From a phage, in the sequence record PZ445529.1: 43,663 nt of DNA; one strand, written 5' to 3'. The translations under genes were made by a program, and so were the position numbers. Within the stretch, counting starts at the first letter, position 1. Each line of letters begins with the position of its first letter. This document shows positions 2,491-17,688 of the stretch, piece after piece. The notes below the pieces were generated by a model. The model was not told where the DNA came from and searched no databases. It was given only the letters and a program-made list of their open reading frames with translations.

Positions 2491-2820
2491 TTACTTCGAA
2501 GTTTTGTTATTGCGTACCCAAGAGCGCACGGTGCTTTGGTTAATTCCTGTCAACTCCGCGATCATTGCCCATGACTTCCCCTCATCGCGCAAACGGATAA
2601 CCTGTTTTTTGTATTCTTCCATTTCCTCATTGTGCTTTTGCAGCTTGCTTGCTGCCGTACCGTTGAGTAATTCCAGCTTCGCGCGCAATTCTTTTTCGGT
2701 AAGTCGCAGACGTTCGATCTCAAATAGCACCGCACCCACGGCATCGGTATATGCCCAGGACCGGCTTGTCTCACTGCAAACAGTCTTAGTTAACATTTCG
2801 ATTGCGTCGTCAATATTCAT
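2491..2820 (-). CDS. small helix-turn-helix DNA-binding protein (candidate transcriptional regulator)
   Basis: 109-aa ORF; C-terminal HTH-like segment GKSWAMIAELTGINQSTVRSWV; RBS GGAGA 8 nt upstream of ATG; first gene of the operon with the primase. Confidence 0.65.
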   Translation of the reverse strand: MNIDDAIEMLTKTVCSETSRSWAYTDAVGAVLFEIERLRLTEKELRAKLELLNGTAASKLQKHNEEMEEYKKQVIRLRDEGKSWAMIAELTGINQSTVRSWVRNNKTSK

Positions 2821-4028: not shown

Positions 4029-4207
4029 TGAAATTCTTCGTGCTGGCAACATGCCACGAATTAGACGATCACACTTCTTTTATTGTTGAAAACACCAACG
4101 CAAGCAATTGCTTTGTGGACGCGCAAAATGAAGTTAAGCGCCGAGTCGAAAAAGCGGGCCTGGCGAATGTGAAATATGTAATTGTCCAGTTTACACGGGT
4201 GGAATAA
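4028..4207 (+). CDS. hypothetical small protein (59 aa), below the ORF-track size cut-off
   Basis: Hand-translated MKFFVLATCHELDDHTSFIVEN...; start overlaps upstream stop and stop overlaps downstream start (TAATG both ends). Confidence 0.45.
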   Translation: MKFFVLATCHELDDHTSFIVENTNASNCFVDAQNEVKRRVEKAGLANVKYVIVQFTRVE

Positions 4208-5637
4208 TGGCGATTAAACCAAAACGTAAAACGCAATCCGGTAGCAATACGGAACACTCATTACTCGGCCCGTCCGGTGCTAAAAAATGGATGGGTTGCC
4301 CTGCCGCCCTGGTGGTGGAAAAAGATATCCCGAACGAATCCGGGCAGGCGGCGATTAACGGTACGAGTATGCACACCGTATCTGAAGTCGTGCTAAACCG
4401 CATTATCGCCGGTGAAAAGCGGATAACAGCAAAGACGTATAAAGGATGTTACGTCGAGAATGAAGGCAAGGGGCCAGTAAAGGCGCACCCGAAAGCGCCG
4501 AAAGGCGGCGTACTGGTCAATGACGACATGGTGAAACAGTGCGATGCATACATCGACCACTGGCGCCCGCTCCTCGAAGTGGCGGAGTTTGTTCAGCTTG
4601 AGATGCGCGCCGATCTGACCCGCGTCCTTCATTCAGGCTTCGAGATCGACGGCAACAGGATTAAAACGTTCGGCACTGCCGATATGGTCATGGTCATGAA
4701 GAAGACCGACGGCACGTACATGCTGATTGTTGGCGACCTGAAGACGGGGCGGCATAAGGTCGAGGCGAAAGAAAACAAACAGCTTATGTTGTACGCGCTC
4801 GGCCTGCTGCGCAAGCTGCAATACATGTACGACATTACGACCGTGCGTCTGGTTATCTTCCAGCCATATTGTGGCGGGGCGTCGGAGTGGGATATTACAG
4901 TGGAAGCGCTGGAGATATTCGCGAAGTTTGCGTCCAAGCGTGCAATCGCCGCCCTGGAAGCGTACACCCGCGGCAAGAAGGGACTAACCCGCGCCGACTT
5001 CCGACCCAGCGTTGATGCGTGCCAGTGGTGCCGATTTGCGGACCAATGTAGTGCCCGGGCGAAGGCCGCAATCGACACGATGACACCACCAACGGCAACC
5101 GACGAAGACCTGGGCGACGACGTGAGTATCGCTACAGAGGAGGAATGCGCCAACCACGATCGCAATATGGCCCGCGAAGCCCGGAAGGCGGCACGACGTG
5201 CGAAGCGAGGCAAGAAAGAAGCGGCCCCCGGCGCTATGAGCGCGGCTGAACTGCGCAAGGCTTATGAAGGTCTGGACGCAATGCGCCAGCACATCAAAGC
5301 AATCGAGTCCGCGGTATTTAAGGCTGTGATGGCGGGTGATGGCGAATCGCTTGGCCTCAAGATGGTTGCCGGTAAGGAAGGGATCCGCAAGTGGGCGGAC
5401 GAGAGCGAAGTGATTGAAATCTTCACGAAGGCCCGGATCAAGCGCGATGTGATGTACAAAGAAACATTGCTCAGCCCTACTGATGCCGAGAAGGTACTGA
5501 AGGACGAGAAACCGAAAGTATGGGCGAAGCTGTGTGATAAAATCACGCGCGCACCGGCAAAACCGGTATTAGCACCAATCGACGATCCGCGCCCTGCGTG
5601 GTCGGAAGCTACTGACGAGGACTTAAGCAATGAATAA
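4207..5637 (+). CDS. PD-(D/E)xK exonuclease of the Cas4/RecB-like phage type (DUF2800-like)
   Basis: 476 aa; nuclease-core motifs GTADMVMV...IVGDLKTGRH; C-terminal Cys cluster CQWCRFADQC typical of Cas4-type nucleases; sits beside a putative SSB. Confidence 0.7.
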   Translation: MAIKPKRKTQSGSNTEHSLLGPSGAKKWMGCPAALVVEKDIPNESGQAAINGTSMHTVSEVVLNRIIAGEKRITAKTYKGCYVENEGKGPVKAHPKAPKGGVLVNDDMVKQCDAYIDHWRPLLEVAEFVQLEMRADLTRVLHSGFEIDGNRIKTFGTADMVMVMKKTDGTYMLIVGDLKTGRHKVEAKENKQLMLYALGLLRKLQYMYDITTVRLVIFQPYCGGASEWDITVEALEIFAKFASKRAIAALEAYTRGKKGLTRADFRPSVDACQWCRFADQCSARAKAAIDTMTPPTATDEDLGDDVSIATEEECANHDRNMAREARKAARRAKRGKKEAAPGAMSAAELRKAYEGLDAMRQHIKAIESAVFKAVMAGDGESLGLKMVAGKEGIRKWADESEVIEIFTKARIKRDVMYKETLLSPTDAEKVLKDEKPKVWAKLCDKITRAPAKPVLAPIDDPRPAWSEATDEDLSNE

Positions 5638-9220: not shown

Positions 9221-9583
9221 ATGAAAGCACCGATTAGCAAAATATTACACTTCCCAGCGAGGGTGCGGCTTATGTGCCCCAACTGTGGCACGGTGAGCAA
9301 CAACCACAAGCCTCACTCCATGCGTACTGAGTACTACTGGGACACGCGCGTGAGGCCGTCAACCGTGTTTTTGCATACGTGCTGCCGGTGTGGGTACACG
9401 GATAGCGACGGGCCTGGGTTTATTGACAGTGGGAACGACCATACCGAGGATTTCGTGAATATGGCGGAGTGGGAGCGCGAGGAGCGCAGACTGCAAGACG
9501 CACTTGACGAATTGAGACGTAAAATCGCGCGGGGGAAAGCGCTATGGGACCGCCGCTGGAACTCGACGGAGGATAGCCAGTAA
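9221..9583 (+). CDS. zinc-ribbon protein (120 aa)
   Basis: Cys pairs CPNCG...CCRCG; weak RBS. Confidence 0.5.
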   Translation: MKAPISKILHFPARVRLMCPNCGTVSNNHKPHSMRTEYYWDTRVRPSTVFLHTCCRCGYTDSDGPGFIDSGNDHTEDFVNMAEWEREERRLQDALDELRRKIARGKALWDRRWNSTEDSQ

Positions 9584-9861
9584 TGACACCAGAAGGCAAG
9601 GTTCAAAGTCACCTGATGAAGCTGGTTAAAGCAGTTGGTGGATTCTGCCGCAAAGTGGCATGGGAGGGGCGCGCAGGCGCGCCCGACCTGATTATCATCA
9701 TCAACGGCCGCATAGTATTCGTCGAAGTGAAGCGCCCAGGCGGAAAACCGAAGCCGCACCAGGTACGTGAACATGAGAGGATGGCCCGCCGCGGCGCGGA
9801 CGTTCGCGTTATAGACAACATCGCCGACTGTGATTTGTTGGTTGCTGAATTGGTCGCATAG
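9583..9861 (+). CDS. VRR-NUC domain nuclease
   Basis: 92 aa; PD-(D/E)xK-type motifs GAPDLIII...FVEVKRPGGK...QVREH; RBS GGAGG. Confidence 0.7.
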   Translation: MTPEGKVQSHLMKLVKAVGGFCRKVAWEGRAGAPDLIIIINGRIVFVEVKRPGGKPKPHQVREHERMARRGADVRVIDNIADCDLLVAELVA

Positions 9862-10341: not shown

Positions 10342-11766
10342 ATGGCACGATTCCGACGTCGCGAATATCAGAAGTTGATTACCGCGTTCATCCTCAAGCA
10401 TAAGCGATGTAATATCTGGGCGACAATGGGATCCGGGAAAACCGGCGCGACAATGTGGGCGCTGAATAAAATGTTCCAGACTGGCGTCCTGTCCCATCAT
10501 GAGGACCGCGTACTGGTGCTGGCCCCGCTGCGTGTTGCGTCAGGTACATGGCCCCCGGAACAGGAGAAATGGCGGTTCTCATCCCTGCTGGTCGTAGACG
10601 GCACCGGACCGGAGAAGGACCGTATTGCCGCGCTTGAGAGCGACGCTAACGTGGTTTGTGTTAACTACGATGTGGTTGAGTGGCTGGTTGACTATTACGG
10701 CGATGCGTGGCCCTTTACGGTCGTTGTTGCCGATGAATCGACTAAGCTGAAAGGCTATCGTAGCAAGCAAGGCAGTAAGCGCGCACGCGCACTGGCAGCG
10801 ATTGCACATAAACACGTCAAGCGCTGGATTAATCTGACCGGCACACCAGCGCCAAACGGCTTGAAAGACTTATGGGGTCAGACGTGGTTTGTCGACGGTG
10901 GCGAACGACTCGGCAGTAGTTATAAGGCATTTACCGATCGCTGGTTCATTAGCAAGCCTGTTAAGCCTGGCAGCTTCACGATGCAGCACGCTCCGCTAAA
11001 GAACTCCGAGAAAGAAATACAACAACGCCTGTCTGACGTATCACTAACCGTTGACGCTGCTGAATACTTCGGGTGCGACAAGCCAATCTATACGCCGGTT
11101 GTTGTGGACCTGCCGAAGAAAGCCCGCAAGATTTACGACCAGTTTGAAAGCGAGCTATTTGCCGAACTGGAAAGCGGAACAGTGGAAGCGGCGAACGCGG
11201 CATCGAAGACAATTAAGTGCCTTCAGCTTGCTTCCGGCGCTGTGTATAAGGTGGACGAAGACGGCGAACGGACCGACGAGTGGGTGAAGATTCACGACGC
11301 CAAACTGGACGCGCTGGAAAGTATCGTGGAGGAGTTGAACGGCGCGCCGTTGCTCGTTGCGTATCAGTACAAGCATGATCTGGCGCGTCTCAAGAAGAAA
11401 TTTCCGCACGGCGTAGCGCTGGGTAAGGGTAAGCAGGGGAATAAGGATATGGAAGCGTGGAACAGGGGCGAGATCCCCATCATGTTTGCACACCCGGCAT
11501 CCGCAGGCCACGGCCTTAACTTGCAGGACGGCGGACACCACCTGGCAATCTTCTCCGATACCTGGAACTTTGAGCACTTTTCGCAGATCGTGGAGCGTAT
11601 CGGGCCGGTTCGACAGATGCAGGCCGGACACCCTAGACCGGTATTCGTATACATTATCCAGGCGCGCGGAACACTGGATGAACTTGTCGCCGAGCGTCGC
11701 GACAGTAAGCGCGATATCCAGGACGATTTAATGGAATACATGAAAGCTAAAAAGGCGCGCAAATGA
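10342..11766 (+). CDS. SNF2/DEAD-like superfamily 2 helicase
   Basis: Walker A TMGSGKTGAT, DExx box VVVADESTKLKG; start at ATG 10342 immediately after the upstream stop. Confidence 0.75.
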   Translation: MARFRRREYQKLITAFILKHKRCNIWATMGSGKTGATMWALNKMFQTGVLSHHEDRVLVLAPLRVASGTWPPEQEKWRFSSLLVVDGTGPEKDRIAALESDANVVCVNYDVVEWLVDYYGDAWPFTVVVADESTKLKGYRSKQGSKRARALAAIAHKHVKRWINLTGTPAPNGLKDLWGQTWFVDGGERLGSSYKAFTDRWFISKPVKPGSFTMQHAPLKNSEKEIQQRLSDVSLTVDAAEYFGCDKPIYTPVVVDLPKKARKIYDQFESELFAELESGTVEAANAASKTIKCLQLASGAVYKVDEDGERTDEWVKIHDAKLDALESIVEELNGAPLLVAYQYKHDLARLKKKFPHGVALGKGKQGNKDMEAWNRGEIPIMFAHPASAGHGLNLQDGGHHLAIFSDTWNFEHFSQIVERIGPVRQMQAGHPRPVFVYIIQARGTLDELVAERRDSKRDIQDDLMEYMKAKKARK

Positions 11767-12053
11767 TAATCTGGTCATTGTTTGACGGCAGCGGCTTGAT
11801 GATTGAGCGTGCTGCCGAGATGGGGCATAAGTGTTATTGCTTCAACTACTCCGAAGCCGATCACGGGTCGTACCTTGACTACCGTATTTATGGTCGCGGA
11901 ATCCGGTATCGCAATGAGTTTATCGATCTGGACTTCGTGGACCGCGCGATGAATGGCGATTTCGGTACGCCAGATATCATCTATGCATTCCCTCCGTGCA
12001 CGGATCTAGCTGTGAGCGGTGCGCACCGCGAAGATCGCAGCTTACCTGGGTGA
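11763..12053 (+). CDS. C5-cytosine methyltransferase-like, N-terminal segment (motif I FDGSG, motif IV-like FPPC); frame ends at 12053
   Basis: SLFDGSGLM and AFPPCTDLAVSG resemble C5-MTase motifs I and IV; ATG overlaps SNF2 stop (ATGA). Confidence 0.5.
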   Translation: MIIWSLFDGSGLMIERAAEMGHKCYCFNYSEADHGSYLDYRIYGRGIRYRNEFIDLDFVDRAMNGDFGTPDIIYAFPPCTDLAVSGAHREDRSLPG

Positions 12054-12402
12054 CTTCTTCGAAGTGCCATATATGATTGAGAATCCGCGCAGTGTGCTTT
12101 CCACCCAGTGGCGTAAGCCGGACCACTCGTTTGATCCGTGGGAGTATGGGGGATATCTGCCGGAGGATGACGTACACCCGCTCTTCCCGGAATACATCAA
12201 CGCCCGCGATTCATATCCGAAGCTGACCTGCTTATGGACCGGCAACGGCTTCCGTATGCCTGAGAAAAAGCCTGTATTCGTTGAAAAAGGGTACTCGAAG
12301 CAGTATAGTCGCCTCGGAGGCAAATCAGCCCGCACAAAATTAATCCGGTCGCTCACCCCGCGCGGCTTCGCGATAGCAGTCAATGAGGAAAATTTAGAAT
12401 GA
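12019..12402 (+). CDS. C5-cytosine methyltransferase-like, C-terminal segment in +1 frame (motif VI-like ENP)
   Basis: VPYMIENPRS resembles the ENV motif; frame is open only from 12016; overlaps upstream segment by about 35 nt, suggesting a frame disruption or recoding. Confidence 0.45.
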   Translation: MRTAKIAAYLGDFFEVPYMIENPRSVLSTQWRKPDHSFDPWEYGGYLPEDDVHPLFPEYINARDSYPKLTCLWTGNGFRMPEKKPVFVEKGYSKQYSRLGGKSARTKLIRSLTPRGFAIAVNEENLE

Positions 12403-12722
12403 ACACTACATTCGAAGCCATCGATTTTTCGGTTGCAATGACTAACCAGTTATTCTCCTACGACAGCAAAACCGGCGTCATTCGTCTGAAGTCCACCGGC
12501 TGCAAAATTGGCAACATCAATACTGCCGATGGAGGCACCCGTATCGAATGCAATGGTAAGACGCTGTCGGGCGCGCGCGTGGCGTGGATTATTGAGACGG
12601 GCAATACAATCCCCCCGGGCTTCGCCGTAGTGTGTCGCCAGCGCACACCAGGGCACTACGGCAACCGAATCAGCAATCTGTATCTGGTAGACGTTGCACG
12701 CGATCCGAATTTTTATTCGTAA
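12399..12722 (+). CDS. HNH-type homing-endonuclease-like protein (NUMOD4-like + HNH-like region, possibly degenerate)
   Basis: 107 aa; YDSKTGVIRLKSTGCKIGN...ECNGK and GHYGNRISNLYLV resemble phage HNH endonuclease motifs; RBS GAGGA. Confidence 0.5.
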   Translation: MNTTFEAIDFSVAMTNQLFSYDSKTGVIRLKSTGCKIGNINTADGGTRIECNGKTLSGARVAWIIETGNTIPPGFAVVCRQRTPGHYGNRISNLYLVDVARDPNFYS

Positions 12723-12727
12723 ATTGG

Positions 12728-12756
12728 TTGCATAACCATATTGGTTGCATTATATT
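12728..12756 (+). promoter_or_regulatory. sigma70-like promoter (-35 TTGCAT, 17-bp spacer, -10 TATATT) built on two direct ATTGGTTGCAT copies
   Basis: aaattggttgcataaccatattggttgcattatatt; contains TGGTT-gcat-AACCA inverted repeat. Confidence 0.5.
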
Positions 12757-12758
12757 GA

Positions 12759-12783
12759 GGGTGTCCGGTTGGACGCCCTTTTT
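12759..12783 (+). terminator. leader hairpin/attenuator (gggtgtcc-ggtt-ggacgccc + TTTTT) between promoter and gene start
   Basis: 7 of 8 bp stem followed by T-run, lying after the promoter and before the ATG at 12803. Confidence 0.45.
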
Positions 12784-12802
12784 AATAACTGGAGACAGTG
12801 CG

Positions 12803-13054
12803 ATGAAATCATTATTTTTCGACTACGACGGCGACCTTCGATTTTGGGTGCTCCTCACCCTCATGATTGCCGTTTGTGTTTGCGTACCTGCCGCGGGTGT
12901 CGCGGGTGTCTACTACTCGGAACGCTACGAATGCCGGACTGTGTACGCAGAGCAAACAGGTCGCAACACCCAATGGCGCTATGGTGTCTGCTGGGTAGAG
13001 ATGGACGGCAAATTTATTCCACGCGATGAAATCCGCACTACGGAGACTAAATAG
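12803..13054 (+). CDS. small membrane protein (83 aa)
   Basis: ATG 12803 with RBS GGAGA; hydrophobic helix FWVLLTLMIAVCVCVPAAGVAGV. Confidence 0.5.
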   Translation: MKSLFFDYDGDLRFWVLLTLMIAVCVCVPAAGVAGVYYSERYECRTVYAEQTGRNTQWRYGVCWVEMDGKFIPRDEIRTTETK

Positions 13055-13510
13055 ATGAAAATTTTACAAGAAGAAAAAGATTACTGGGCCGCGCAATGCC
13101 TCGAAGCCCGCGAACAGGCCGAACGGGCTAACTCGGTGGCGGACACCAACCAGGCGCTATATGAAGGAGAGAAGAAAGTGCGCCGGGAGTTAGAGGAACG
13201 CTTCGAACTGCTTTTCGAATTGATGGGGATTATGCAGCGCACCGGGTACACAACCAGCGTTGCGCTAAACCGCGTCACGGCTGATGCGTTGCGCGAGCAT
13301 TGCAAACGGGCCGAGGAATACGTGCGCTCGAAGGGCCGCCAGTCTTCGATCGCCCGGAAAGACCTTGTGCTCATGGCGTGGCGCAACCCTACAAACGGCA
13401 GCATCTACCCGAACGCGCGCCCGCTTAGTGTCGAAGAAGCAAAGCGCGTCATCAATAAAGGTGGTAAGACTCCACTTTATGCGATAGACACCGACCATGC
13501 AGAAGAGTGA
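13055..13510 (+). CDS. hypothetical protein (151 aa)
   Basis: ORF abutting upstream stop; RBS GGAGA. Confidence 0.5.
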   Translation: MKILQEEKDYWAAQCLEAREQAERANSVADTNQALYEGEKKVRRELEERFELLFELMGIMQRTGYTTSVALNRVTADALREHCKRAEEYVRSKGRQSSIARKDLVLMAWRNPTNGSIYPNARPLSVEEAKRVINKGGKTPLYAIDTDHAEE

Positions 13511-13982
13511 GCAAAAAGATAGCTGGCGCACGCCGCCAGCTTTATTTAAACCGCTGCGCCGTAAGTTCCGATTCCGTTACGATATGGCGGCGAGCGACGC
13601 CAATCATCTGCTACCGCGTTACTTCACGGCAGAGCACAGCGCGCTTGATGTGGACTGGGCAGAGTTGAAAGGGTGGAAGTGGTGCAATCCGCCGTATTCC
13701 GATCCGTTGCCGTGGGTGGAATGCGCAGCGCACGGACGACGTACTGTCATGCTGCTGAATCAGGACACGTCGACGAAGTGGGCGAAGTTGGCCCGGAAGA
13801 CTGCAAACCTGATAATTCTTCTGGACTGGCGTATTAGATTCATTCACGCCGTCACCGGCGAAGTCGGTCCGAGCAATAACAAGTGCCAGCAATTGATAAT
13901 CTTTGACGAAGCGCCACCAATCGGCAGCGCACAAATTGAAATAATGAGCGAAGGAGAACTCCTTGAATATCTTAATCGTTGA
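13497..13982 (+). CDS. phage Dam-type DNA N6-adenine methyltransferase
   Basis: 161 aa; N-terminal WRTPPALF and catalytic NPPYS motifs of the phage Dam family. Confidence 0.8.
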   Translation: MQKSEQKDSWRTPPALFKPLRRKFRFRYDMAASDANHLLPRYFTAEHSALDVDWAELKGWKWCNPPYSDPLPWVECAAHGRRTVMLLNQDTSTKWAKLARKTANLIILLDWRIRFIHAVTGEVGPSNNKCQQLIIFDEAPPIGSAQIEIMSEGELLEYLNR

Positions 13983-14187
13983 CCGCGACCCCGCGGTAGT
14001 AGACCAAATGCAAAAAGACTTCTGCATCGACCCACGCCGCGATCGTGTGCGTCGCGTGTCGCGGCCTGAATACCTTCTGGGCCTGGACCTTACCGGCTGG
14101 CTTGTCATGACTCAGCGTTGCCATTTCGTGTGTAACTCCTTCACCGCGCGCAGCGCCCGATACACCCTTATTGAGAGCTTAAAATGA
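13963..14187 (+). CDS. hypothetical protein (74 aa), TTG start
   Basis: ORF with AAGGAG 6 nt upstream of TTG; overlaps Dam 3' end. Confidence 0.3.
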   Translation: MNILIVDRDPAVVDQMQKDFCIDPRRDRVRRVSRPEYLLGLDLTGWLVMTQRCHFVCNSFTARSARYTLIESLK

Positions 14188-14654
14188 AATTACTGATTTG
14201 CGATTTGGATGGCGTTATTAATGGTTCAAGCGATGCGCGTGCCGACCTGGTGCCGGGGATAAAAACGAAATCAACCTTTTGGGCAAAGTGGCACAAAGCG
14301 CATGTACGCGAAGACCTGAACATGGATATGCTGCCGCTGTTGCGCATGTACAAAGAGCAAGGCTTCGAGATCGCGTATCTGACCAACCGGCAGCTAGAAT
14401 GCTGGGAGACTACCGCCGAGCAACTGGAGGTATTCCCGGCAGGCCGGTTGTTTATGCGCCACATGCTGGACGACACCCCGCCGCCAGAGTTTAAGGCGTG
14501 CGCTGTGTTCAAAATGGTCTGCTATGCAGACGTGTCTGAACTTGTCATCATTGAGGACTGCGAGAAGAACATCGCGGCAATTCGTCGGGCGTGCGGCGAT
14601 TTGGTCCCGAAAATTTACGCAATAAACGTTGCAAAATTCACTTGCAACCAATAG
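14184..14654 (+). CDS. HAD-superfamily hydrolase (nucleotidase/phosphatase-like)
   Basis: 156 aa; motif I LICDLDGVI (DxDG). Confidence 0.55.
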   Translation: MKLLICDLDGVINGSSDARADLVPGIKTKSTFWAKWHKAHVREDLNMDMLPLLRMYKEQGFEIAYLTNRQLECWETTAEQLEVFPAGRLFMRHMLDDTPPPEFKACAVFKMVCYADVSELVIIEDCEKNIAAIRRACGDLVPKIYAINVAKFTCNQ

Positions 14655-14660
14655 GTTGGT
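14632..14660 (+). promoter_or_regulatory. promoter-like element with perfect palindrome TGCAACCAA-tagg-TTGGTTGCA
   Basis: cttgcaaccaataggttggttgcattatag; -35 TTGCAA, 17-bp spacer, -10-like TTATAG. Confidence 0.45.
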
Positions 14661-14717
14661 TGCATTATAGTTAACGCGTCGGGGGGCAATACGGCCTCCC
14701 ATAAAAAGGACCACATA

Positions 14718-15176
14718 ATGAAAGCATACGAATACTGCAAAAACGCCGCCACCACTATGGAACAGCGCGGAAAAGAAAACGGCTATGGCAACGCGAAAGA
14801 AGAACGCATCGCTAAACAAATAGCTGCCGTGTTTAACGCGCTTACCGGTCGCGACCTGACCGAGCAAGAAGCCTGGACTTTCTTGATTTGCCTGAAGCTG
14901 GTACGCCAGCACCGCAAGCACCGGGAAGACAATATCGTCGACCTGGTAGCGTATGCGGCCTTGCTTGGCGAATCCCACATGACCGTTCATGATGAGATTC
15001 AGGTTGATACAACGGCAGCGCAATACGACAGCCTCAAGGCCACCAATTTCGGCGTCGTAGACCAGGACGTCCAGCCTATGGTCGTGCTCACTGGCGAGGA
15101 TGGGTCCAAAATCCTCATGACGCCGGAAGACTTCCGCAACATGGAAAAAACACTGGTACGTAGCGCACTGAAATAA
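14718..15176 (+). CDS. hypothetical protein (152 aa) with conserved-looking N-terminal segment KENGYGNAKEERIAKQIAAVFNALTG
   Basis: ORF with RBS AAGGA 7 nt upstream. Confidence 0.5.
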   Translation: MKAYEYCKNAATTMEQRGKENGYGNAKEERIAKQIAAVFNALTGRDLTEQEAWTFLICLKLVRQHRKHREDNIVDLVAYAALLGESHMTVHDEIQVDTTAAQYDSLKATNFGVVDQDVQPMVVLTGEDGSKILMTPEDFRNMEKTLVRSALK

Positions 15177-15184
15177 TTCTAATC

Positions 15185-15200
15185 GCGGGCTTCGGCCCGC
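15185..15200 (+). promoter_or_regulatory. GC stem-loop with UUCG tetraloop (gcgggc-ttcg-gcccgc), no T-run
   Basis: Perfect 6-bp stem 9 nt after the stop at 15176. Confidence 0.35.
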
Positions 15201-15218
15201 ATCAATGAGGGATTCACA

Positions 15219-15794
15219 ATGTACGGCGAATATGAAATAACCGGTAAACAATTCCACTTGGCGGCAATGATTGCAAGCATCGAGTTTGAACAGTGGCGAT
15301 ACAAGTCTGACGCGTGCAAGCAAAGCAGACTCGTCGGTGTGCTGGGCGAAATGTTTGCAGGCATGTACCTCGAAGGGCAGGCGGGCGGGCGTAGCTGTAT
15401 CCCGCAAGGTTTGCTAATGCGTACCGGCCTGTTTAGCGCTAACACTATCGACCGCGGCGATATTATCATGGTCGGCAAGCGCAAGGTAAAATCCGGTCCC
15501 GACTTCCGCGAACATATGATTGATGCCGTCTGGACCTACGAGGTTAAGGCCACCAGCGGCATCCGTCGGGGGTTGGTGGAGGCGCGTTGCGCTCGTGAGT
15601 ATCTCACTCGTCGAGTTGCCGGTGTTATTCTGGTGGGAGTGTCGTTCGGGCAGCATAGCGCCAGCGGCGTTATTGAGGATATTGCGGAGCCATACGTGAT
15701 TGTGAACGACTGGCCCCTGGTGGAAGTGGAAGGAAAGGAATATTACGAAAGCCCGTTGGTACGGCGTAAAATGGACTGGGAAAACTCAAACTAA
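15219..15794 (+). CDS. hypothetical protein (191 aa); possible PD-(D/E)xK-like core (IDAVWTYEVK)
   Basis: ATG with RBS GAGGG 7 nt upstream; last plus-strand gene before the convergent terminator. Confidence 0.5.
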   Translation: MYGEYEITGKQFHLAAMIASIEFEQWRYKSDACKQSRLVGVLGEMFAGMYLEGQAGGRSCIPQGLLMRTGLFSANTIDRGDIIMVGKRKVKSGPDFREHMIDAVWTYEVKATSGIRRGLVEARCAREYLTRRVAGVILVGVSFGQHSASGVIEDIAEPYVIVNDWPLVEVEGKEYYESPLVRRKMDWENSN

Positions 15795-15795
15795 A

Positions 15796-15816
15796 AAGGG
15801 GGCCACGCAGCCCCTT
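15796..15816. terminator. bidirectional terminator between convergent early (+) and late (-) blocks
   Basis: aaaaaggggg-ccacgcag-cccctt; A-run on one side, T-rich on the other. Confidence 0.6.
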
Positions 15817-15820
15817 CTCC

Positions 15821-17389
15821 TTATTTACCTTCCAGCTTTTCCACTTTCCGCAACAGGTGAACGAAGGCGGCACACAGATCCATCAACAGCACGTTACTAT
15901 CTAGTGACAGCACATCGTCCGTATACCCGATTTCCTTTCGGTCGACTACAACTTCGTTGCCTTCCTCGTCCACCCCCTTGATATCCTCATAAATGGCATA
16001 ACCCGGCAGCAAGTGCACATATTCTGGGTCAATCCTTGCCAGATCCTGTGCGATAAGGCCGTATCGCTGTACGTCAGACTCCTTATACTTGAACATTGCC
16101 GGAAGCCATTGACGAACGCGGTTGTAGCTTTCCTCGCCGTCAGTGTATTGGATTTCTTTTTTAAGGTCGCGGTCCGATAGCGCCGCTTTCTGGAACTCGT
16201 TAACCGAAGGGTTGCTGCTGTTACCACTAATCAGCCTGCCGTCCGGTAGGAAGCGGAATAAAGCCTCCGCATAACCATCCTTCCACACGTGGACACGGTA
16301 GTCCGATAAGTGGGCATCGCCGCCCCTGACCAAGCCAGATCGTGTCCAATCCGTGTACCACTTATGCATCGTCTGCCCGACCCAGCTATCCATCCCGAAA
16401 GACGCGTTTGATATAATCAAACCGTTTCTTTCGACATCATTGAAGGTTAGCGATTCGCCTCCGTTCAGACGTAATGTTGCGTGTTTAACGATACTATCAT
16501 CACCAACGCCAAGATTAGCGCGTGCCGCCGATTTATCTGCGACGTCTGCCAGGTTCTGCGACTTCTTCATGAATTGCGTAGGGTCGATCGCGTTTTTGAA
16601 GTCTTCGGCTTCGTCCCGATACCCCTGCGCGGCATCGCGGGCGGCTTGCGCGTCCCTCTTCGCTGTATTGGCCTGATCTCGAATAACGCCGGTGTCAGTC
16701 TTGATCTGGTTCGTCTGCGTCTTGATGGCCTGCGTATCCGTCTTGATCTGGTTCGTCTGCGTCTTGATGGCCTGCGTATCCGTCTTGATCTGGTTCGTCT
16801 GCGTCTTGATGGCCTGCGTATCAGTTTTGATCTGGTTCGTCTGCGTCTTGATGGTATTGGTGGCGTCGCGAATACCCGCCGTCTCGGTCTTGAAGCCTTC
16901 TGCCTCATTGCGAAATCCTTGCGCGGCTGCTTCCGATGCGGCGGCTTGTTGTTGCAGGTCGCGCATTTCCACTGGGTCGATCTGTTTCATCAACTGCGAC
17001 AGATAGCCCCATGACATACCCTGCATGACTTGCCCGTTCGGCAGCGTTACGGTGATTTCTTCAGCGTCGCCGAAGATTGCACGCCAGTTGTTTTCATCGG
17101 CGATCATCAAACGAAATGCTTTCTGTGCCTGGACGGTAACGCCCATCGTAGTCAATGACATGGTGTCACGTTTGATGCCGTCCCAGGCTAGGCCGGTTGC
17201 CGTCGGGCCGTCGAACGGCAGCACCAGCGTAAGCGCCGTGTTACTTTTGATTGATGCGATCGCCACGGTGTAAGGAACTTGCCCTACCACCAGCGTTAAG
17301 AAGTCGCCAGCTTTAAACGCGGTAAACGTTGTGCCGACCCCTACTACCGCCTTGCTATTGTTCGTTACGGATAGCGTACCCGCTGCCAT
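15821..17389 (-). CDS. tail fibre with coiled repeat region and C-terminal intramolecular chaperone (peptidase S74-like) domain
   Basis: C-terminal SDRDLKKEI...YGLIAQDL...LLMDLCAAFVHLLRKVEKLEGK resembles autoproteolytic chaperone domains; start set at ATG 17389 (RBS GAGGA) rather than 17416. Confidence 0.65.
   Translation of the reverse strand: MAAGTLSVTNNSKAVVGVGTTFTAFKAGDFLTLVVGQVPYTVAIASIKSNTALTLVLPFDGPTATGLAWDGIKRDTMSLTTMGVTVQAQKAFRLMIADENNWRAIFGDAEEITVTLPNGQVMQGMSWGYLSQLMKQIDPVEMRDLQQQAAASEAAAQGFRNEAEGFKTETAGIRDATNTIKTQTNQIKTDTQAIKTQTNQIKTDTQAIKTQTNQIKTDTQAIKTQTNQIKTDTGVIRDQANTAKRDAQAARDAAQGYRDEAEDFKNAIDPTQFMKKSQNLADVADKSAARANLGVGDDSIVKHATLRLNGGESLTFNDVERNGLIISNASFGMDSWVGQTMHKWYTDWTRSGLVRGGDAHLSDYRVHVWKDGYAEALFRFLPDGRLISGNSSNPSVNEFQKAALSDRDLKKEIQYTDGEESYNRVRQWLPAMFKYKESDVQRYGLIAQDLARIDPEYVHLLPGYAIYEDIKGVDEEGNEVVVDRKEIGYTDDVLSLDSNVLLMDLCAAFVHLLRKVEKLEGK
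16698..16865. repeat. in-frame 42-bp tandem repeat (about 4 copies, 21-bp sub-period) encoding TDTQAIKTQTNQIK heptad repeats
   Basis: Unit gtcttgatctggttcgtctgcgtcttgatggcctgcgtatcc repeated head-to-tail. Confidence 0.85.
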
Positions 17390-17410
17390 AGCTAAATCCT
17401 CGTAAATTGG

Positions 17411-17439
17411 TTGCAATCCAGGTTGAGCGGTGTAATACT
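17411..17439 (+). promoter_or_regulatory. promoter-like element with ATTGGTTGCAA motif (-35 TTGCAA, -10-like TAATAC) upstream of the lipoprotein gene
   Basis: cgtaaattggttgcaatccaggttgagcggtgtaatact. Confidence 0.4.
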
Positions 17440-17469
17440 AAAACTCAACCAAATATAGGGGATGATACC

Positions 17470-17688
17470 ATGAAAACTTTAATTATGATTTGTGCGGTTC
17501 TTTTGTCCGGTTGTGCCAACATGCCCGCTAAAGTCTGCGACGCCACATACCAGAATAGCGGCATTGATTATGCGGTCCCTGTGTATGGTGTCGCAGACTT
17601 CTCCGGGCATAAAATGCTAAGGGCGGGTTATCCGTTTAGCTTCCAGTACGTGTCGGTAGACCATTTCAAAAACACCACCTGCGAATAA
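17470..17688 (+). CDS. small lipoprotein (73 aa) encoded antisense inside the tail gene block; candidate receptor-blocking/superinfection-exclusion protein
   Basis: Signal peptide with lipobox MKTLIMICAVLLSGC; RBS GGGGA; own promoter and terminator. Confidence 0.6.
   Translation: MKTLIMICAVLLSGCANMPAKVCDATYQNSGIDYAVPVYGVADFSGHKMLRAGYPFSFQYVSVDHFKNTTCE

What the first reader, a model, noticed from the sequence alone, without database searches (positions are those of the whole stretch)
12399..15794. Early accessory block with Dam-type methyltransferase, HAD hydrolase and five proteins of unknown function
Downstream of the replication genes, two internal TTGGTTGCA promoters (12728, 14632) drive an HNH-like protein, a small membrane protein, a Dam-type MTase, a HAD hydrolase and unknowns of 151, 74, 152 and 191 aa; the last has a possible PD-(D/E)xK-like core. 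This is the most likely place for host-defence evasion or nucleotide-metabolism functions; only the MTase and HAD motifs are clear.
Basis: partly seen in the sequence, partly recalled or inferred. Interest (0 to 1): 0.4.

Follow-up and report, generated by a model that had tools for sequence, protein, structure and literature searches.

The report
Conserved Dhillonvirus early gene block
This stretch is the conserved far end of the early operon of a Dhillonvirus coliphage: eight real genes, two of which are orthologues of proteins already shown to block (anti-Tmn) or set off (Ksap1) bacterial immune systems, so it is mostly known biology with one newly classified nuclease.

Summary
There are eight + strand ORFs at 12399-15794. 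TTGGTTGCA boxes lie in both internal intergenic gaps: 12 exact copies in the window against 0.4 expected.

The window is a Dhillonvirus. 150 phage records carry the same block at 80-91% nucleotide identity.

- The 151-aa ORF is 84% identical to anti-Tmn (ORF35 of phage SM_S22), which databases mislabel "DNA ligase".
- The 74-aa ORF is 86% identical to Ksap1, the protein that binds and activates KpAvs2.

These two are the fastest-evolving full-length genes in the block. The HNH-like protein, the Dam methylase (PF05869), the small HAD phosphatase and the 191-aa protein are at least 95% conserved in most genomes.

The DUF6378 protein stays unexplained. The membrane ORF is present in only about half of the genus. 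I found no evidence of DNA hypermodification.

Verdict: an ordinary, largely explained block in a new member of a known genus. Interest is low to moderate.

The parts
11763..12402 (+). Context, just outside the finding: a Dcm-like C5 cytosine methyltransferase gene broken by a 56-bp out-of-frame deletion. It survives as two ORF fragments, 11763-12053 and 12019-12402.
   Evidence: Both fragments hit phrog_757. Alignment with SECphi18 and TheodorHerzl shows the deletion between GCGGTGCGC direct repeats. All 12 listed top hits carry the undeleted 147-bp version.
12399..12722 (+). HNH_3-like protein, 107 aa. Fixed in the genus. Candidate H86/N93/N104 motif.
   Evidence: phrog_99 E = 1.6e-16. Pfam HNH_3 reaches only 13 bits against a cut-off of 24.8. 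H86, N89, N93, D98, D102 and N104 are invariant in five relatives. At least 95% identical in 128 of 162 records.
12724..12756 (+). Promoter-like region P1: two direct TTGGTTGCA boxes (12724-12732, 12741-12749). TTGCAT (12728-12733), a 17-nt spacer, then TATATT (12751-12756).
   Evidence: Conserved in TheodorHerzl, SECphi18 and distant relatives L004 and L005. Promoter function is inferred.
12757..12783 (+). GC-rich hairpin (12757-12766 pairs with 12771-12780) running into a T5 tract (12779-12783), immediately after the -10 hexamer of P1.
   Evidence: RNA fold -17.7 kcal/mol, z = -4.8. Sequence conserved in relatives.
12803..13054 (+). Small single-pass membrane protein, 83 aa. Variably present in the genus.
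   Evidence: phrog_18961 E = 1.6e-50. Hydrophobic stretch found. Present in only 79 phage records. Absent in SECphi18.
13055..13510 (+). Anti-Tmn orthologue, 151 aa. Databases label the family 'DNA ligase', which is wrong.
   Evidence: 84% identical over its full length to SM_S22 CDS0035, which is ORF35/anti-Tmn. The gene is missing in SM_A8, as the paper states. Paper: PMC11846954. No Pfam, NCBIfam or PADLOC hit.
13497..13982 (+). Orphan Dam-family N6-adenine DNA methyltransferase, 161 aa. DMAAS at residues 29-33 and NPPY at 64-67.
   Evidence: PF05869 at 123 bits, cut-off 28.1. Motifs located. At least 95% identical in 120 Dhillonvirus records.
13963..14187 (+). Ksap1 orthologue, 74 aa, TTG start. 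Ksap1 is the protein recognised by the immune sensor KpAvs2.
   Evidence: 86% identical to SECphi18 Ksap1. L39, L47, T50 and F60 are kept; K30 is R. It sits between the methyltransferase and phosphatase genes, as the paper describes. It is hypervariable across the genus.
14184..14654 (+). Small HAD-superfamily phosphatase, 156 aa. D7xD9, T67, K104, E124-D125.
   Evidence: phrog_415 E = 3.8e-35. Motifs invariant in alignment A7. Profile against PDB: class C acid phosphatase 2i33 at E = 1.1e-4, Pnkp1 4xrp at E = 5.6e-3.
14642..14671 (+). Promoter-like region P2: TTGCAA (14642-14647), an 18-nt spacer holding the palindrome TGCAACCAA-TAGG-TTGGTTGCA (14643-14664), then TATAGT (14666-14671).
   Evidence: Promoter scan, 9 of 12 matches. 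Sequence. Two boxes are kept at this site in all relatives.
14681..14700 (+). Stem-loop in the 5' leader of the DUF6378 gene. The stem is kept by different sequences in relatives.
   Evidence: Fold -14.4 kcal/mol, z = -2.0. Alignment A9 shows different G/C stems at the same place in L004 and L005. Covariation was not tested formally.
14718..15176 (+). DUF6378 protein, 152 aa: helical N-terminal domain, a linker of variable length, and a conserved C-terminal beta-hairpin plus helix. Function unknown.
   Evidence: PF19905 at 39.8 bits, cut-off 27.1. Length varies 130-199 aa in relatives. The AF2 model is poor, pLDDT 50.8.
15185..15200 (+). GCGGGC-UUCG-GCCCGC tetraloop hairpin between the DUF6378 and nuclease genes. 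No U-tract follows it.
   Evidence: Fold -13.6 kcal/mol, z = -4.7. Sequence.
15219..15794 (+). PD-(D/E)xK-fold nuclease, 191 aa. Catalytic candidates E44, D81, E108 and K110. Member of a small, unnamed, phage-only family.
15797..15816 (.). Terminator-like hairpin between the convergent nuclease gene (+) and lateral tail-fibre gene (-).
   Evidence: Found on both strands by the terminator scan. Fold -11.8 kcal/mol.

Best explanation
The interval is the distal part of the rightward early (DNA-metabolism) operon of a Dhillonvirus (HK578/SSL-2009a-like) coliphage.

It appears to be split into three transcription units by two conserved promoter-like regions, each carrying a pair of TTGGTTGCA boxes:
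1. ...SNF2, Dcm-like, HNH-like.
2. Membrane ORF, anti-Tmn, Dam, Ksap1, HAD.
3. DUF6378, nuclease, terminator.

The genes fall into two classes.

(a) Four slowly evolving enzymes fixed in the genus:
- An HNH_3-like protein.
- An orphan PF05869 Dam-family N6-adenine methyltransferase. It presumably methylates phage DNA during rapid replication and so protects it from restriction at the sites it methylates (inferred).
- A 156-aa HAD phosphomonoesterase. It is closest to class B/C acid phosphatases (nucleotidases) and to the phosphatase domain of Pnkp. Its substrate is unknown.
- A PD-(D/E)xK nuclease with an intact E-D-ExK site. It is most likely a Mg2+-dependent DNA endonuclease used in phage DNA metabolism (inferred).

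(b) Fast-evolving or variably present small proteins at the phage-host immunity interface:
- The 151-aa protein is the orthologue of anti-Tmn. Anti-Tmn neutralises the membrane KAP-NTPase defence Tmn in an allele-specific way.
- The 74-aa protein is Ksap1. It binds the C-terminal sensor domain of KpAvs2 and thereby switches on that protein's nuclease (abortive infection). The window's allele keeps L39, L47, T50 and F60, so it is predicted to be sensed.
- The membrane ORF and the DUF6378 protein have no assignable function.

What is shown here: the ORFs, their homologies, the fold, the invariant residues, synteny and the variability profile. What others have shown on orthologues: anti-Tmn and Ksap1 activities. 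What is inferred: promoter function, the Dam target, the phosphatase substrate, and the role of the nuclease.
For: Genus and synteny:
- 150 phage records cover at least 80% of the block at 80-91% identity, and all are Dhillonvirus-type.
- Gene order is the same in TheodorHerzl, SECphi18 and SM_S22.
- It is also the same in metagenomic relatives whose nuclease is only 54-57% identical.

Anti-Tmn:
- 84% identity to SM_S22 CDS0035.
- The paper's CDS numbering matches the GenBank record.
- The gene is absent from SM_A8, exactly as the paper reports.

Ksap1:
- 86% identity, the same position between Dam and the phosphatase, and the key residues kept.

Variability across about 158 genomes:
- HNH-like, Dam, HAD and nuclease are at least 95% identical in 128, 120, 112 and 126 records.
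- Anti-Tmn and Ksap1 have no record at or above 95%, and 113 and 54 records in the 60-80% band.

Nuclease. Dam. HAD. Motif.
Against: - No transcript or activity data exist for this phage. The promoters and unit boundaries rest on consensus matches only, and the -35 elements are weak (3-4 of 6).
- Anti-Tmn activity is strongly allele-dependent. Five close homologues failed against the tested Tmn, so this 84%-identical allele may be inactive against any given Tmn.
- Equating the paper's ORF35 with GenBank CDS0035 is my inference from numbering and presence/absence. The paper does not state it.
- Ksap1's benefit to the phage is unknown, and phages tolerate its deletion.
- The substrates of the nuclease and the phosphatase are not determined.
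- The DUF6378 model failed.
Confidence: 0.8

Rival explanations
1. The whole block is a dedicated counter-defence or nucleotide-modification island. On this view most of its genes exist to evade host immunity or to alter the phage's nucleotides.
For: It contains anti-Tmn and an orphan Dam. A Dcm-like methyltransferase lies next to it. SM_S22 has a Lar-like restriction-alleviation gene a few genes upstream. The small proteins evolve fast.
Against: Four of the eight genes are fixed, at least 95% conserved, and syntenic with the replication module even in distant relatives. That is the pattern of housekeeping DNA metabolism, not of swappable counter-defence cargo. Ksap1 is a liability to the phage (an immune trigger), not a shield. 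BASEL phenotyping places Dhillonviruses among the comparatively RM-sensitive small siphoviruses, not the DNA-modified genera. GATC and CCWGG are not avoided. PADLOC matched nothing except the methyltransferase.
Confidence: 0.25
2. The nuclease and the phage adenine methyltransferase form a phage-borne restriction-modification-like pair. The nuclease would cut DNA lacking the phage's methylation (host or competing phage DNA), while the methyltransferase protects the phage genome.
Against: The two genes are not adjacent; three genes and a promoter separate them. Methyltransferases are common in phage early regions, and the contexts are not independent. E. coli hosts are themselves Dam+. SECphi18 escapers with deletions that remove part of the methyltransferase gene upstream of ksap1 are viable with the nuclease intact, although host Dam could compensate. 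Two contexts show no methyltransferase.
Confidence: 0.12
3. The 191-aa nuclease is the phage's Holliday-junction or branched-DNA resolvase (Hjc-like), needed to debranch replicated DNA before packaging.
Confidence: 0.15
4. The HNH-like gene and/or the PD-(D/E)xK gene are free-standing homing endonucleases, that is, selfish mobile genes.
Against: Both genes are present at the same locus in essentially every Dhillonvirus record at 90-99% identity, and in distant relatives. Homing endonuclease genes are typically sporadic in their distribution.
Confidence: 0.05

Closest known systems
Early-region block of sequenced Dhillonviruses (HK578, SSL-2009a, SECphi18, BASEL Bas14 TheodorHerzl, SM_S22)
   Same: Same genes in the same order between the SNF2 helicase and the lateral tail-fibre gene. 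80-91% nucleotide identity. The same paired TTGGTTGCA boxes.
   Different: No record exceeds 91% identity over the block. The window keeps the optional membrane ORF. Its anti-Tmn protein is 3 aa shorter. Its neighbouring Dcm-like gene is broken by a private 56-bp deletion.
Anti-Tmn (ORF35 of Escherichia phage SM_S22; Commun Biol 2025, PMC11846954)
   Same: 84% identity over the full length. Same locus between the HNH-like and Dam genes. The family is essentially confined to Dhillonvirus.
   Different: Activity is allele-specific, and this allele is untested. The inhibitory mechanism is unknown even for SM_S22.
Ksap1 of SECphi18 (KpAvs2-stimulating protein 1; Nat Commun 2024, PMC11564622)
   Same: 86% identity, 74 aa, same locus. 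Keeps L47 and T50 (the escape positions) and L39 and F60 (the contact residues).
   Different: K30 is R here. Binding to KpAvs2 has not been tested for this allele. The protein's own function is unknown.
Phage Dam-family methyltransferases (Pfam PF05869 / TIGR01712)
   Same: Strong Pfam match, NPPY catalytic motif, small single-domain orphan enzyme.
   Different: Below the NCBIfam equivalog cut-off, 86.6 against 97.05 bits. Target sequence not determined.
HAD phosphatases of the class B/C acid phosphatase and Pnkp-phosphatase type (PDB 2i33, 4xrp; T4 Pnkp C-terminal domain)
   Same: All four HAD motifs, and weak but specific profile matches. PHROG 415 groups it with 'polynucleotide kinase' phosphatase domains.
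   Different: Only 156 aa. No kinase (P-loop) domain, so it is not a polynucleotide kinase. Below the Pfam cut-off for Acid_phosphat_B, 22.7 against 27 bits.
PD-(D/E)xK nucleases: I-Ssp6803I, archaeal Hjc, fusellovirus D212, small type II restriction enzymes
   Same: alpha-beta-beta-beta-alpha-beta core, with Glu on the first helix, Asp at the start of strand 2, and ExK in strand 3.

Membership tests
Dam-family phage N6-adenine methyltransferase (Pfam PF05869) | Profile match above the curated cut-off | tested here: met
   123 bits against a cut-off of 28.1, E = 1.3e-35, residues 3-142.
Dam-family phage N6-adenine methyltransferase (Pfam PF05869) | (D/N)PPY catalytic motif and an upstream AdoMet-binding DxAA-type motif | tested here: met
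   NPPY at residues 64-67 and DMAAS at 29-33. The role of these motifs is from general knowledge of amino-methyltransferases.
Dam-family phage N6-adenine methyltransferase (Pfam PF05869) | NCBIfam equivalog TIGR01712 score above its cut-off | tested here: not met
   86.6 bits against 97.05. It is a family member but not a certified equivalog.
Dam-family phage N6-adenine methyltransferase (Pfam PF05869) | Methylation of adenine in GATC | not testable with these tools
   Needs methylation-sensitive digestion or SMRT/nanopore methylome data.
HAD-superfamily phosphatase | Four catalytic motifs: DxDx(T/V), S/T, K, (D/E)D | tested here: met
   D7-L-D9-G-V, K104 and D125 are invariant; motif II is T67 or Ser, and position 124 is E or D, across six sequences down to 34% identity.
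HAD-superfamily phosphatase | Curated profile match (Pfam Acid_phosphat_B or NCBIfam HAD models) | tested here: not met
   Best is 22.7 bits against 27. NCBIfam matches are all far below cut-off. Support comes from phrog_415 at 3.8e-35 and PDB profile hits at 1e-4 and 6e-3.
Polynucleotide kinase-phosphatase (T4 Pnkp type; a database label for the 156-aa protein) | N-terminal P-loop kinase domain | tested here: not met
   The protein is 156 aa and consists of the HAD domain only. No kinase family matched.
PD-(D/E)xK nuclease superfamily | Restriction-endonuclease-like alpha-beta-beta-beta-alpha-beta core fold | tested here: met
PD-(D/E)xK nuclease superfamily | Conserved acidic and lysine catalytic residues at the canonical positions | tested here: met
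   E44 on helix 34-54, D81 at the start of strand 81-87, and E108-x-K110 in strand 101-112. All are invariant in 16 sequences.
PD-(D/E)xK nuclease superfamily | Membership of a named sequence family (Pfam, NCBIfam, PDB relative) | tested here: not met
   No hit for the protein or its family profile. It has only 15 relatives in 1.84 billion representatives.
PD-(D/E)xK nuclease superfamily | Metal-dependent nuclease activity | not testable with these tools
   Needs purified protein.
Anti-Tmn (SM_S22 ORF35) | Full-length homology and the same locus | tested here: met
   84% identity, E = 6e-99. It lies between the HNH-like and Dam genes.
Anti-Tmn (SM_S22 ORF35) | The published ORF35 is GenBank CDS0035 of PP627283 | tested here: met
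   The paper's CDS6 (nmad5) and CDS25 (a tail protein of more than 1098 aa) fit the record's numbering. The gene is absent in SM_A8, which has only 139 bp between Dam and HNH, as the paper says. This is an inference; the paper does not state it.
Anti-Tmn (SM_S22 ORF35) | Inhibition of Tmn defence | not testable with these tools
   Activity is allele-specific according to the paper.
Ksap1 (SECphi18) | Homology, length and position between the methyltransferase and phosphatase genes | tested here: met
   86% identity, 74 aa. The position matches the paper's description.
Ksap1 (SECphi18) | Residues implicated in KpAvs2 recognition (K30, L39, F60; escape sites L47, T50) | tested here: met
   L39, L47, T50 and F60 are identical. 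K30 is R, which keeps the charge.
Ksap1 (SECphi18) | Binding to and activation of KpAvs2 | not testable with these tools
   Needs co-expression toxicity or pull-down assays.
ATP/NAD-dependent DNA ligase (a database label for the 151-aa protein) | Nucleotidyltransferase domain with a KxDG adenylation motif | tested here: not met
   No Pfam or NCBIfam match. There is no KxDG in the sequence, and 151 aa is too short. The label traces back to older phage records.
HNH endonuclease (Pfam HNH_3) | Profile match and an H-N-(H/N) beta-beta-alpha-metal motif | tested here: inconclusive
   Pfam gives 13 bits against 24.8, and the match stops before the catalytic core. phrog_99 gives 1.6e-16. H86, N93 and N104 are invariant with plausible spacing.
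Free-standing homing endonuclease | Sporadic presence or absence among close relatives | tested here: not met
   The HNH-like and PD-(D/E)xK genes are present in essentially all Dhillonvirus records at the same locus.
DUF6378 (Pfam PF19905) | Profile match above cut-off | tested here: met
   39.8 bits against 27.1. 12 of 13 relatives also match.
MazG-like all-alpha NTP pyrophosphatase (considered for the DUF6378 protein) | Detectable profile similarity or a shared fold | tested here: not met
   hhalign against E. coli MazG gives probability 0.1%. No PDB sequence hit. The AF2 model is too poor for a fold search. The test has low power, so a distant relationship is not excluded.

The most novel reading that the evidence does not exclude
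The 191-aa protein would found a new, phage-only PD-(D/E)xK nuclease family that works together with a phage adenine methyltransferase. This would be a phage-borne restriction-modification-like device. It would cut unmethylated host or rival-phage DNA while the phage's own genome is protected. The basis is that distant homologues keep turning up near non-homologous methyltransferases (Dam, MT-A70, N6_N4).
Probability: 0.12. Interest if true: 0.55.

Novelty: new member of a known kind. Interest (0 to 1): 0.25.

Why it matters
For annotation, the result corrects several labels that keep propagating:
- 'DNA ligase' should read anti-Tmn.
- 'acid phosphatase' and 'hypothetical' on the 74-aa gene should read Ksap1.
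- 'polynucleotide kinase' should read a stand-alone HAD phosphatase.
- 'phosphofructokinase' should read DUF6378.

It also gives the conserved terminal gene of the block a fold and an active site.

For phage biology and therapy, it shows that the two genes in this block with known immune interactions are also its two fastest-evolving full-length genes. Their alleles could help predict whether a Dhillonvirus isolate is stopped by Tmn- or KpAvs2-carrying hosts. This phage's Ksap1 allele is predicted to be sensed.

If the nuclease proved to be coupled to methylation, that would be a new type of phage-encoded restriction-modification-like function. The present evidence for that is weak.

Tried and rejected
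- AlphaFold2 on the DUF6378 protein with a 13-sequence alignment gave pLDDT 50.8 and pTM 0.27. That is too poor for a fold search, so its fold remains unknown.
- A relationship between DUF6378 and MazG was tested by hhalign against E. coli MazG: probability 0.1%. No PDB sequence hits either. A literature search for DUF6378, Nmad1 and DUF1599 gave nothing useful.
- PDB sequence searches with the nuclease, alone or as a profile, gave only chance hits. Pfam on 16 family members gave nothing.
- PADLOC matched nothing in the block except methyltransferase models.
- The afdb50 fold library was unavailable. The BFVD viral library returned only uncharacterised phage proteins, plus one labelled 'restriction endonuclease'.
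- A Dhillonvirus gene of unknown function triggers Retron-Eco7 (PMC12640716). The main text does not identify the gene and no supplement is held, so I could not tell whether it lies in this block.
- Papers on RAZR, Borvo, Retron-Eco8, Zorya/Druantia/ARMADA, Evangelion and daunorubicin mention Dhillonviruses. They implicate genes outside this block (portal, polymerase, SSB) or no specific gene.
- Hypermodified DNA was considered and rejected. BASEL phenotyping places Dhillonviruses among the comparatively RM-sensitive small siphoviruses, and GATC and CCWGG are not avoided.
- The 'DNA ligase' and 'polynucleotide kinase' labels were rejected on domain content.

Full report
**What the window is.** The 3.4-kb interval matches 158 phage records. 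150 of them cover at least 80% of it at 80-91% nucleotide identity, and all are Dhillonvirus-type coliphages: HK578, SSL-2009a, SECphi18, the BASEL phages Bas14-18 and others. The 43.7-kb window has the genome size and gene content of such a phage. Upstream on the + strand lie a DUF2800/PD-(D/E)xK exonuclease, an Enc34-type ssDNA-binding protein, a family A DNA polymerase, a VRR-NUC nuclease and an SNF2 helicase. Downstream, on the other strand, lies the lateral tail-fibre gene.

**Checking the observation.** All eight ORFs are present as described. They are tightly packed, with overlaps of 4-20 nt inside each unit. Two intergenic gaps, 12723-12802 and 14655-14717, divide them.

TTGGTTGCA occurs 12 times exactly in the window against 0.40 expected from shuffles. 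Two copies sit in each gap. At 12724 and 12741 they form a direct pair followed by TATATT. At 14643(-) and 14656(+) they form a palindrome between a TTGCAA and a TATAGT hexamer.

Both pairs are retained at the same sites in relatives whose nuclease orthologue is only 54-57% identical. The element is therefore functional. Whether it is a promoter part or an operator is not settled.

Each site is followed by a stable hairpin. The first (12757-12780, -17.7 kcal/mol) runs into a T5 tract directly after the -10 hexamer. Transcripts coming from upstream would meet a terminator there. Transcripts that start at this promoter would begin inside the stem and escape it. This is inference only.

**Enzymes that were already suspected.**
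- Dam. The 161-aa protein is a clear PF05869 Dam-family methyltransferase, at 123 bits with an NPPY motif. It is below the NCBIfam equivalog threshold.
- HAD. The 156-aa protein has all four HAD motifs, invariant in relatives down to 34% identity. A family profile finds a class C acid phosphatase (2i33, E = 1e-4) and the phosphatase part of Pnkp1 (4xrp, E = 6e-3). It has no kinase domain, so the database label 'polynucleotide kinase' is wrong.
- HNH-like. The 107-aa protein matches phrog_99 (E = 1.6e-16) but not Pfam HNH_3. H86, N93 and N104 are invariant and could form an H-N-N motif. Membership is inconclusive.

**Two 'unknowns' are known.**

The 74-aa ORF is the orthologue of Ksap1. [quoted passage not shown] Ksap1 binds the C-terminal domain of the Klebsiella NLR-like protein KpAvs2 and activates its nuclease (PMC11564622). 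The window's protein is 86% identical. It keeps the escape-mutation sites L47 and T50 and the contact residues L39 and F60; K30 is R. Phages tolerate large ksap1 deletions, and its own role is unknown.

The 151-aa ORF is 84% identical to CDS0035 of phage SM_S22. The paper on Tmn immunity (PMC11846954) identifies 'ORF35' of SM_S22 as anti-Tmn. It describes a gene absent from SM_A8 and found almost only in Dhillonvirus, encoding a rod-like helical N-terminus and a small beta-sheet C-terminal part. Three points tie ORF35 to CDS0035:
- The paper's other CDS numbers fit the GenBank record.
- SM_A8 has only 139 bp where this gene would be.
- The family is confined to Dhillonvirus-type records.

The widespread 'DNA ligase' label has no support. 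There is no ligase domain and no KxDG motif, and the protein is only 151 aa.

An exhaustive HMMER search of 1.84 billion representatives finds only 15 relatives. In a 16-sequence alignment reaching 23% identity, E44, D81, E108 and K110 are invariant. In the model they sit at the canonical positions: first core helix, start of the second strand, and third strand. There is no Pfam, NCBIfam, PADLOC or PDB sequence match.

All homologues with readable context are in phages, towards the end of the early or replication gene cluster and, where flanks are readable, usually just upstream of tail or lysis genes. In 7 of 9 contexts a DNA methyltransferase of one family or another (Dam, MT-A70, N6_N4) lies within about 6 kb, upstream on the same strand in all but L017, where the Dam gene is on the opposite strand. 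HAD and DUF6378 genes recur too. This is suggestive of a link to methylation but weak, because methyltransferases are common in such regions and the contexts are related.

The window's own VRR-NUC gene, and the RusA or VRR-NUC genes near distant homologues, argue against the protein being the phage's sole junction resolvase. Its fixed, highly conserved distribution argues against a homing endonuclease.

**What remains unexplained.**
- The DUF6378 protein has a conserved helical N-terminal domain (PF19905), a linker that varies from 0 to about 45 residues, and a conserved C-terminal piece. Its model failed, and a test against MazG was negative.
- The 83-aa membrane ORF is present in only 79 records.

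**Evolutionary pattern.** tblastn against the phage collection gives a sharp contrast within the block.

| Gene | Records at >=95% identity | Other bands |
|---|---|---|
| HNH-like | 128 | - |
| Dam | 120 | - |
| HAD | 112 | - |
| Nuclease | 126 | - |
| Anti-Tmn homologue | 0 | 113 at 60-80% |
| Ksap1 | 0 | 54 at 60-80%, 15 below 60% |

Ksap1 is flanked on both sides by genes that are at least 95% conserved. The nuclease is 97% identical to that of SECphi4 while Ksap1 is only 50% identical. The two genes with published immune interactions are thus the two most diversified full-length genes in the block. That fits an arms race and local recombination.

**Verdict.** The block is real and correctly delimited. 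It belongs to a well-sampled genus and is largely explained: conserved DNA-metabolism enzymes interleaved with fast-evolving immune-interface proteins. New here are four things:
- The fold and active-site assignment of the terminal nuclease, and its tiny family.
- The link of two ORFs to recent experimental papers.
- The correction of several propagated labels.
- The variability profile across the genus.

BASEL phenotyping places Dhillonviruses among the comparatively RM-sensitive small siphoviruses, in contrast to the 7-deazaguanine-modified genera, and the window shows no avoidance of GATC or CCWGG. A nucleotide-modification role is therefore unsupported.

Noticed in passing
window 11763-12402 (junction near 12015): The Dcm-like C5 methyltransferase gene just upstream carries a 56-bp out-of-frame deletion between GCGGTGCGC direct repeats, which splits it into 96-aa and 127-aa ORFs. 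All 12 listed top phage hits have the intact 147-bp version. TheodorHerzl has a different, in-frame 117-bp deletion near the 3' end. This could be a pseudogene or an assembly error. Published work says phage Dcm can trigger retron Eco1 (text seen), so loss of the gene could be selected; that is speculation.
   Followed up: partly
window 3009, 12724, 12741, 14643, 14656, 17407, 33402, 33415, 40674, 42889, 43421, 43452: TTGGTTGCA occurs 12 times exactly (0.4 expected). At least nine copies lie in gaps between genes, eight of them in pairs 4-22 bp apart next to a TATAxT hexamer or just upstream of a start codon. The element is conserved in distant relatives. It looks like a genome-wide regulatory box. 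A candidate binding protein is the HTH/sigma-70-region-4-like ORF at 2491-2820 (- strand).
   Followed up: partly
window 12751-12783: A strong terminator-like hairpin with a T5 tract starts 1 nt after the -10 hexamer of the first internal promoter. Read-through transcripts from upstream would be stopped. Transcripts that start at this promoter would begin inside the stem and escape.
   Followed up: partly
window 15185-15200: A perfect GCGGGC-UUCG-GCCCGC tetraloop hairpin (-13.6 kcal/mol, z = -4.7) lies between the DUF6378 and nuclease genes with no U-tract. It may be an mRNA processing or stability element.
   Followed up: no
window 14681-14700; L001, L002, L004, L005 at the aligned positions: The 5' leader of the DUF6378 gene holds a G/C stem-loop. 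Its sequence differs between relatives while its pairing potential is kept. Covariation was not tested formally.
   Followed up: no
window 12803-13054: The small membrane-protein gene is present in only 79 of about 158 Dhillonvirus records, at 60-90% identity. It is missing from SECphi18 and SM_S22. It is the only truly optional gene of the block.
   Followed up: partly
window 14718-15176 and homologues P0142-P0261: DUF6378 proteins of close relatives range from 130 to 199 aa. The cause is insertions and deletions in a linker between two conserved parts. Some records label the family 'phosphofructokinase' or 'nucleotide modification associated protein' without visible support.
   Followed up: partly
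loci L007, L010, L012, L016, L017, L018: Distant homologues of the 191-aa nuclease (23-36% identity) lie in unrelated phage types. They sit near methyltransferases from three non-homologous families, and often near HAD or DUF6378 genes as well.
   Followed up: partly
window 16560-16910 (- strand, inside the tail-fibre ORF 15821-17416): The lateral tail-fibre protein contains a run of near-perfect tandem repeats (IKTQTNQIKTDTQA repeated several times), visible in the translation.
   Followed up: no
window 17467-17688 (+ strand): A small ORF with a lipoprotein-like signal (MKTLIMICAVLLSGC) follows a TTGGTTGCA box. It lies where SM_A8 annotates a 'super-infection exclusion protein cor' and where L005 has a Pfam Phage_lipoprotein gene.
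   Followed up: no
window 9583-9861 and 4207-5637: The genome encodes two further PD-(D/E)xK-type nucleases, a VRR-NUC protein (92 aa) and a DUF2800/PDDEXK_1 exonuclease (476 aa). The 191-aa protein is therefore the third nuclease of this fold in a 44-kb genome.
   Followed up: partly
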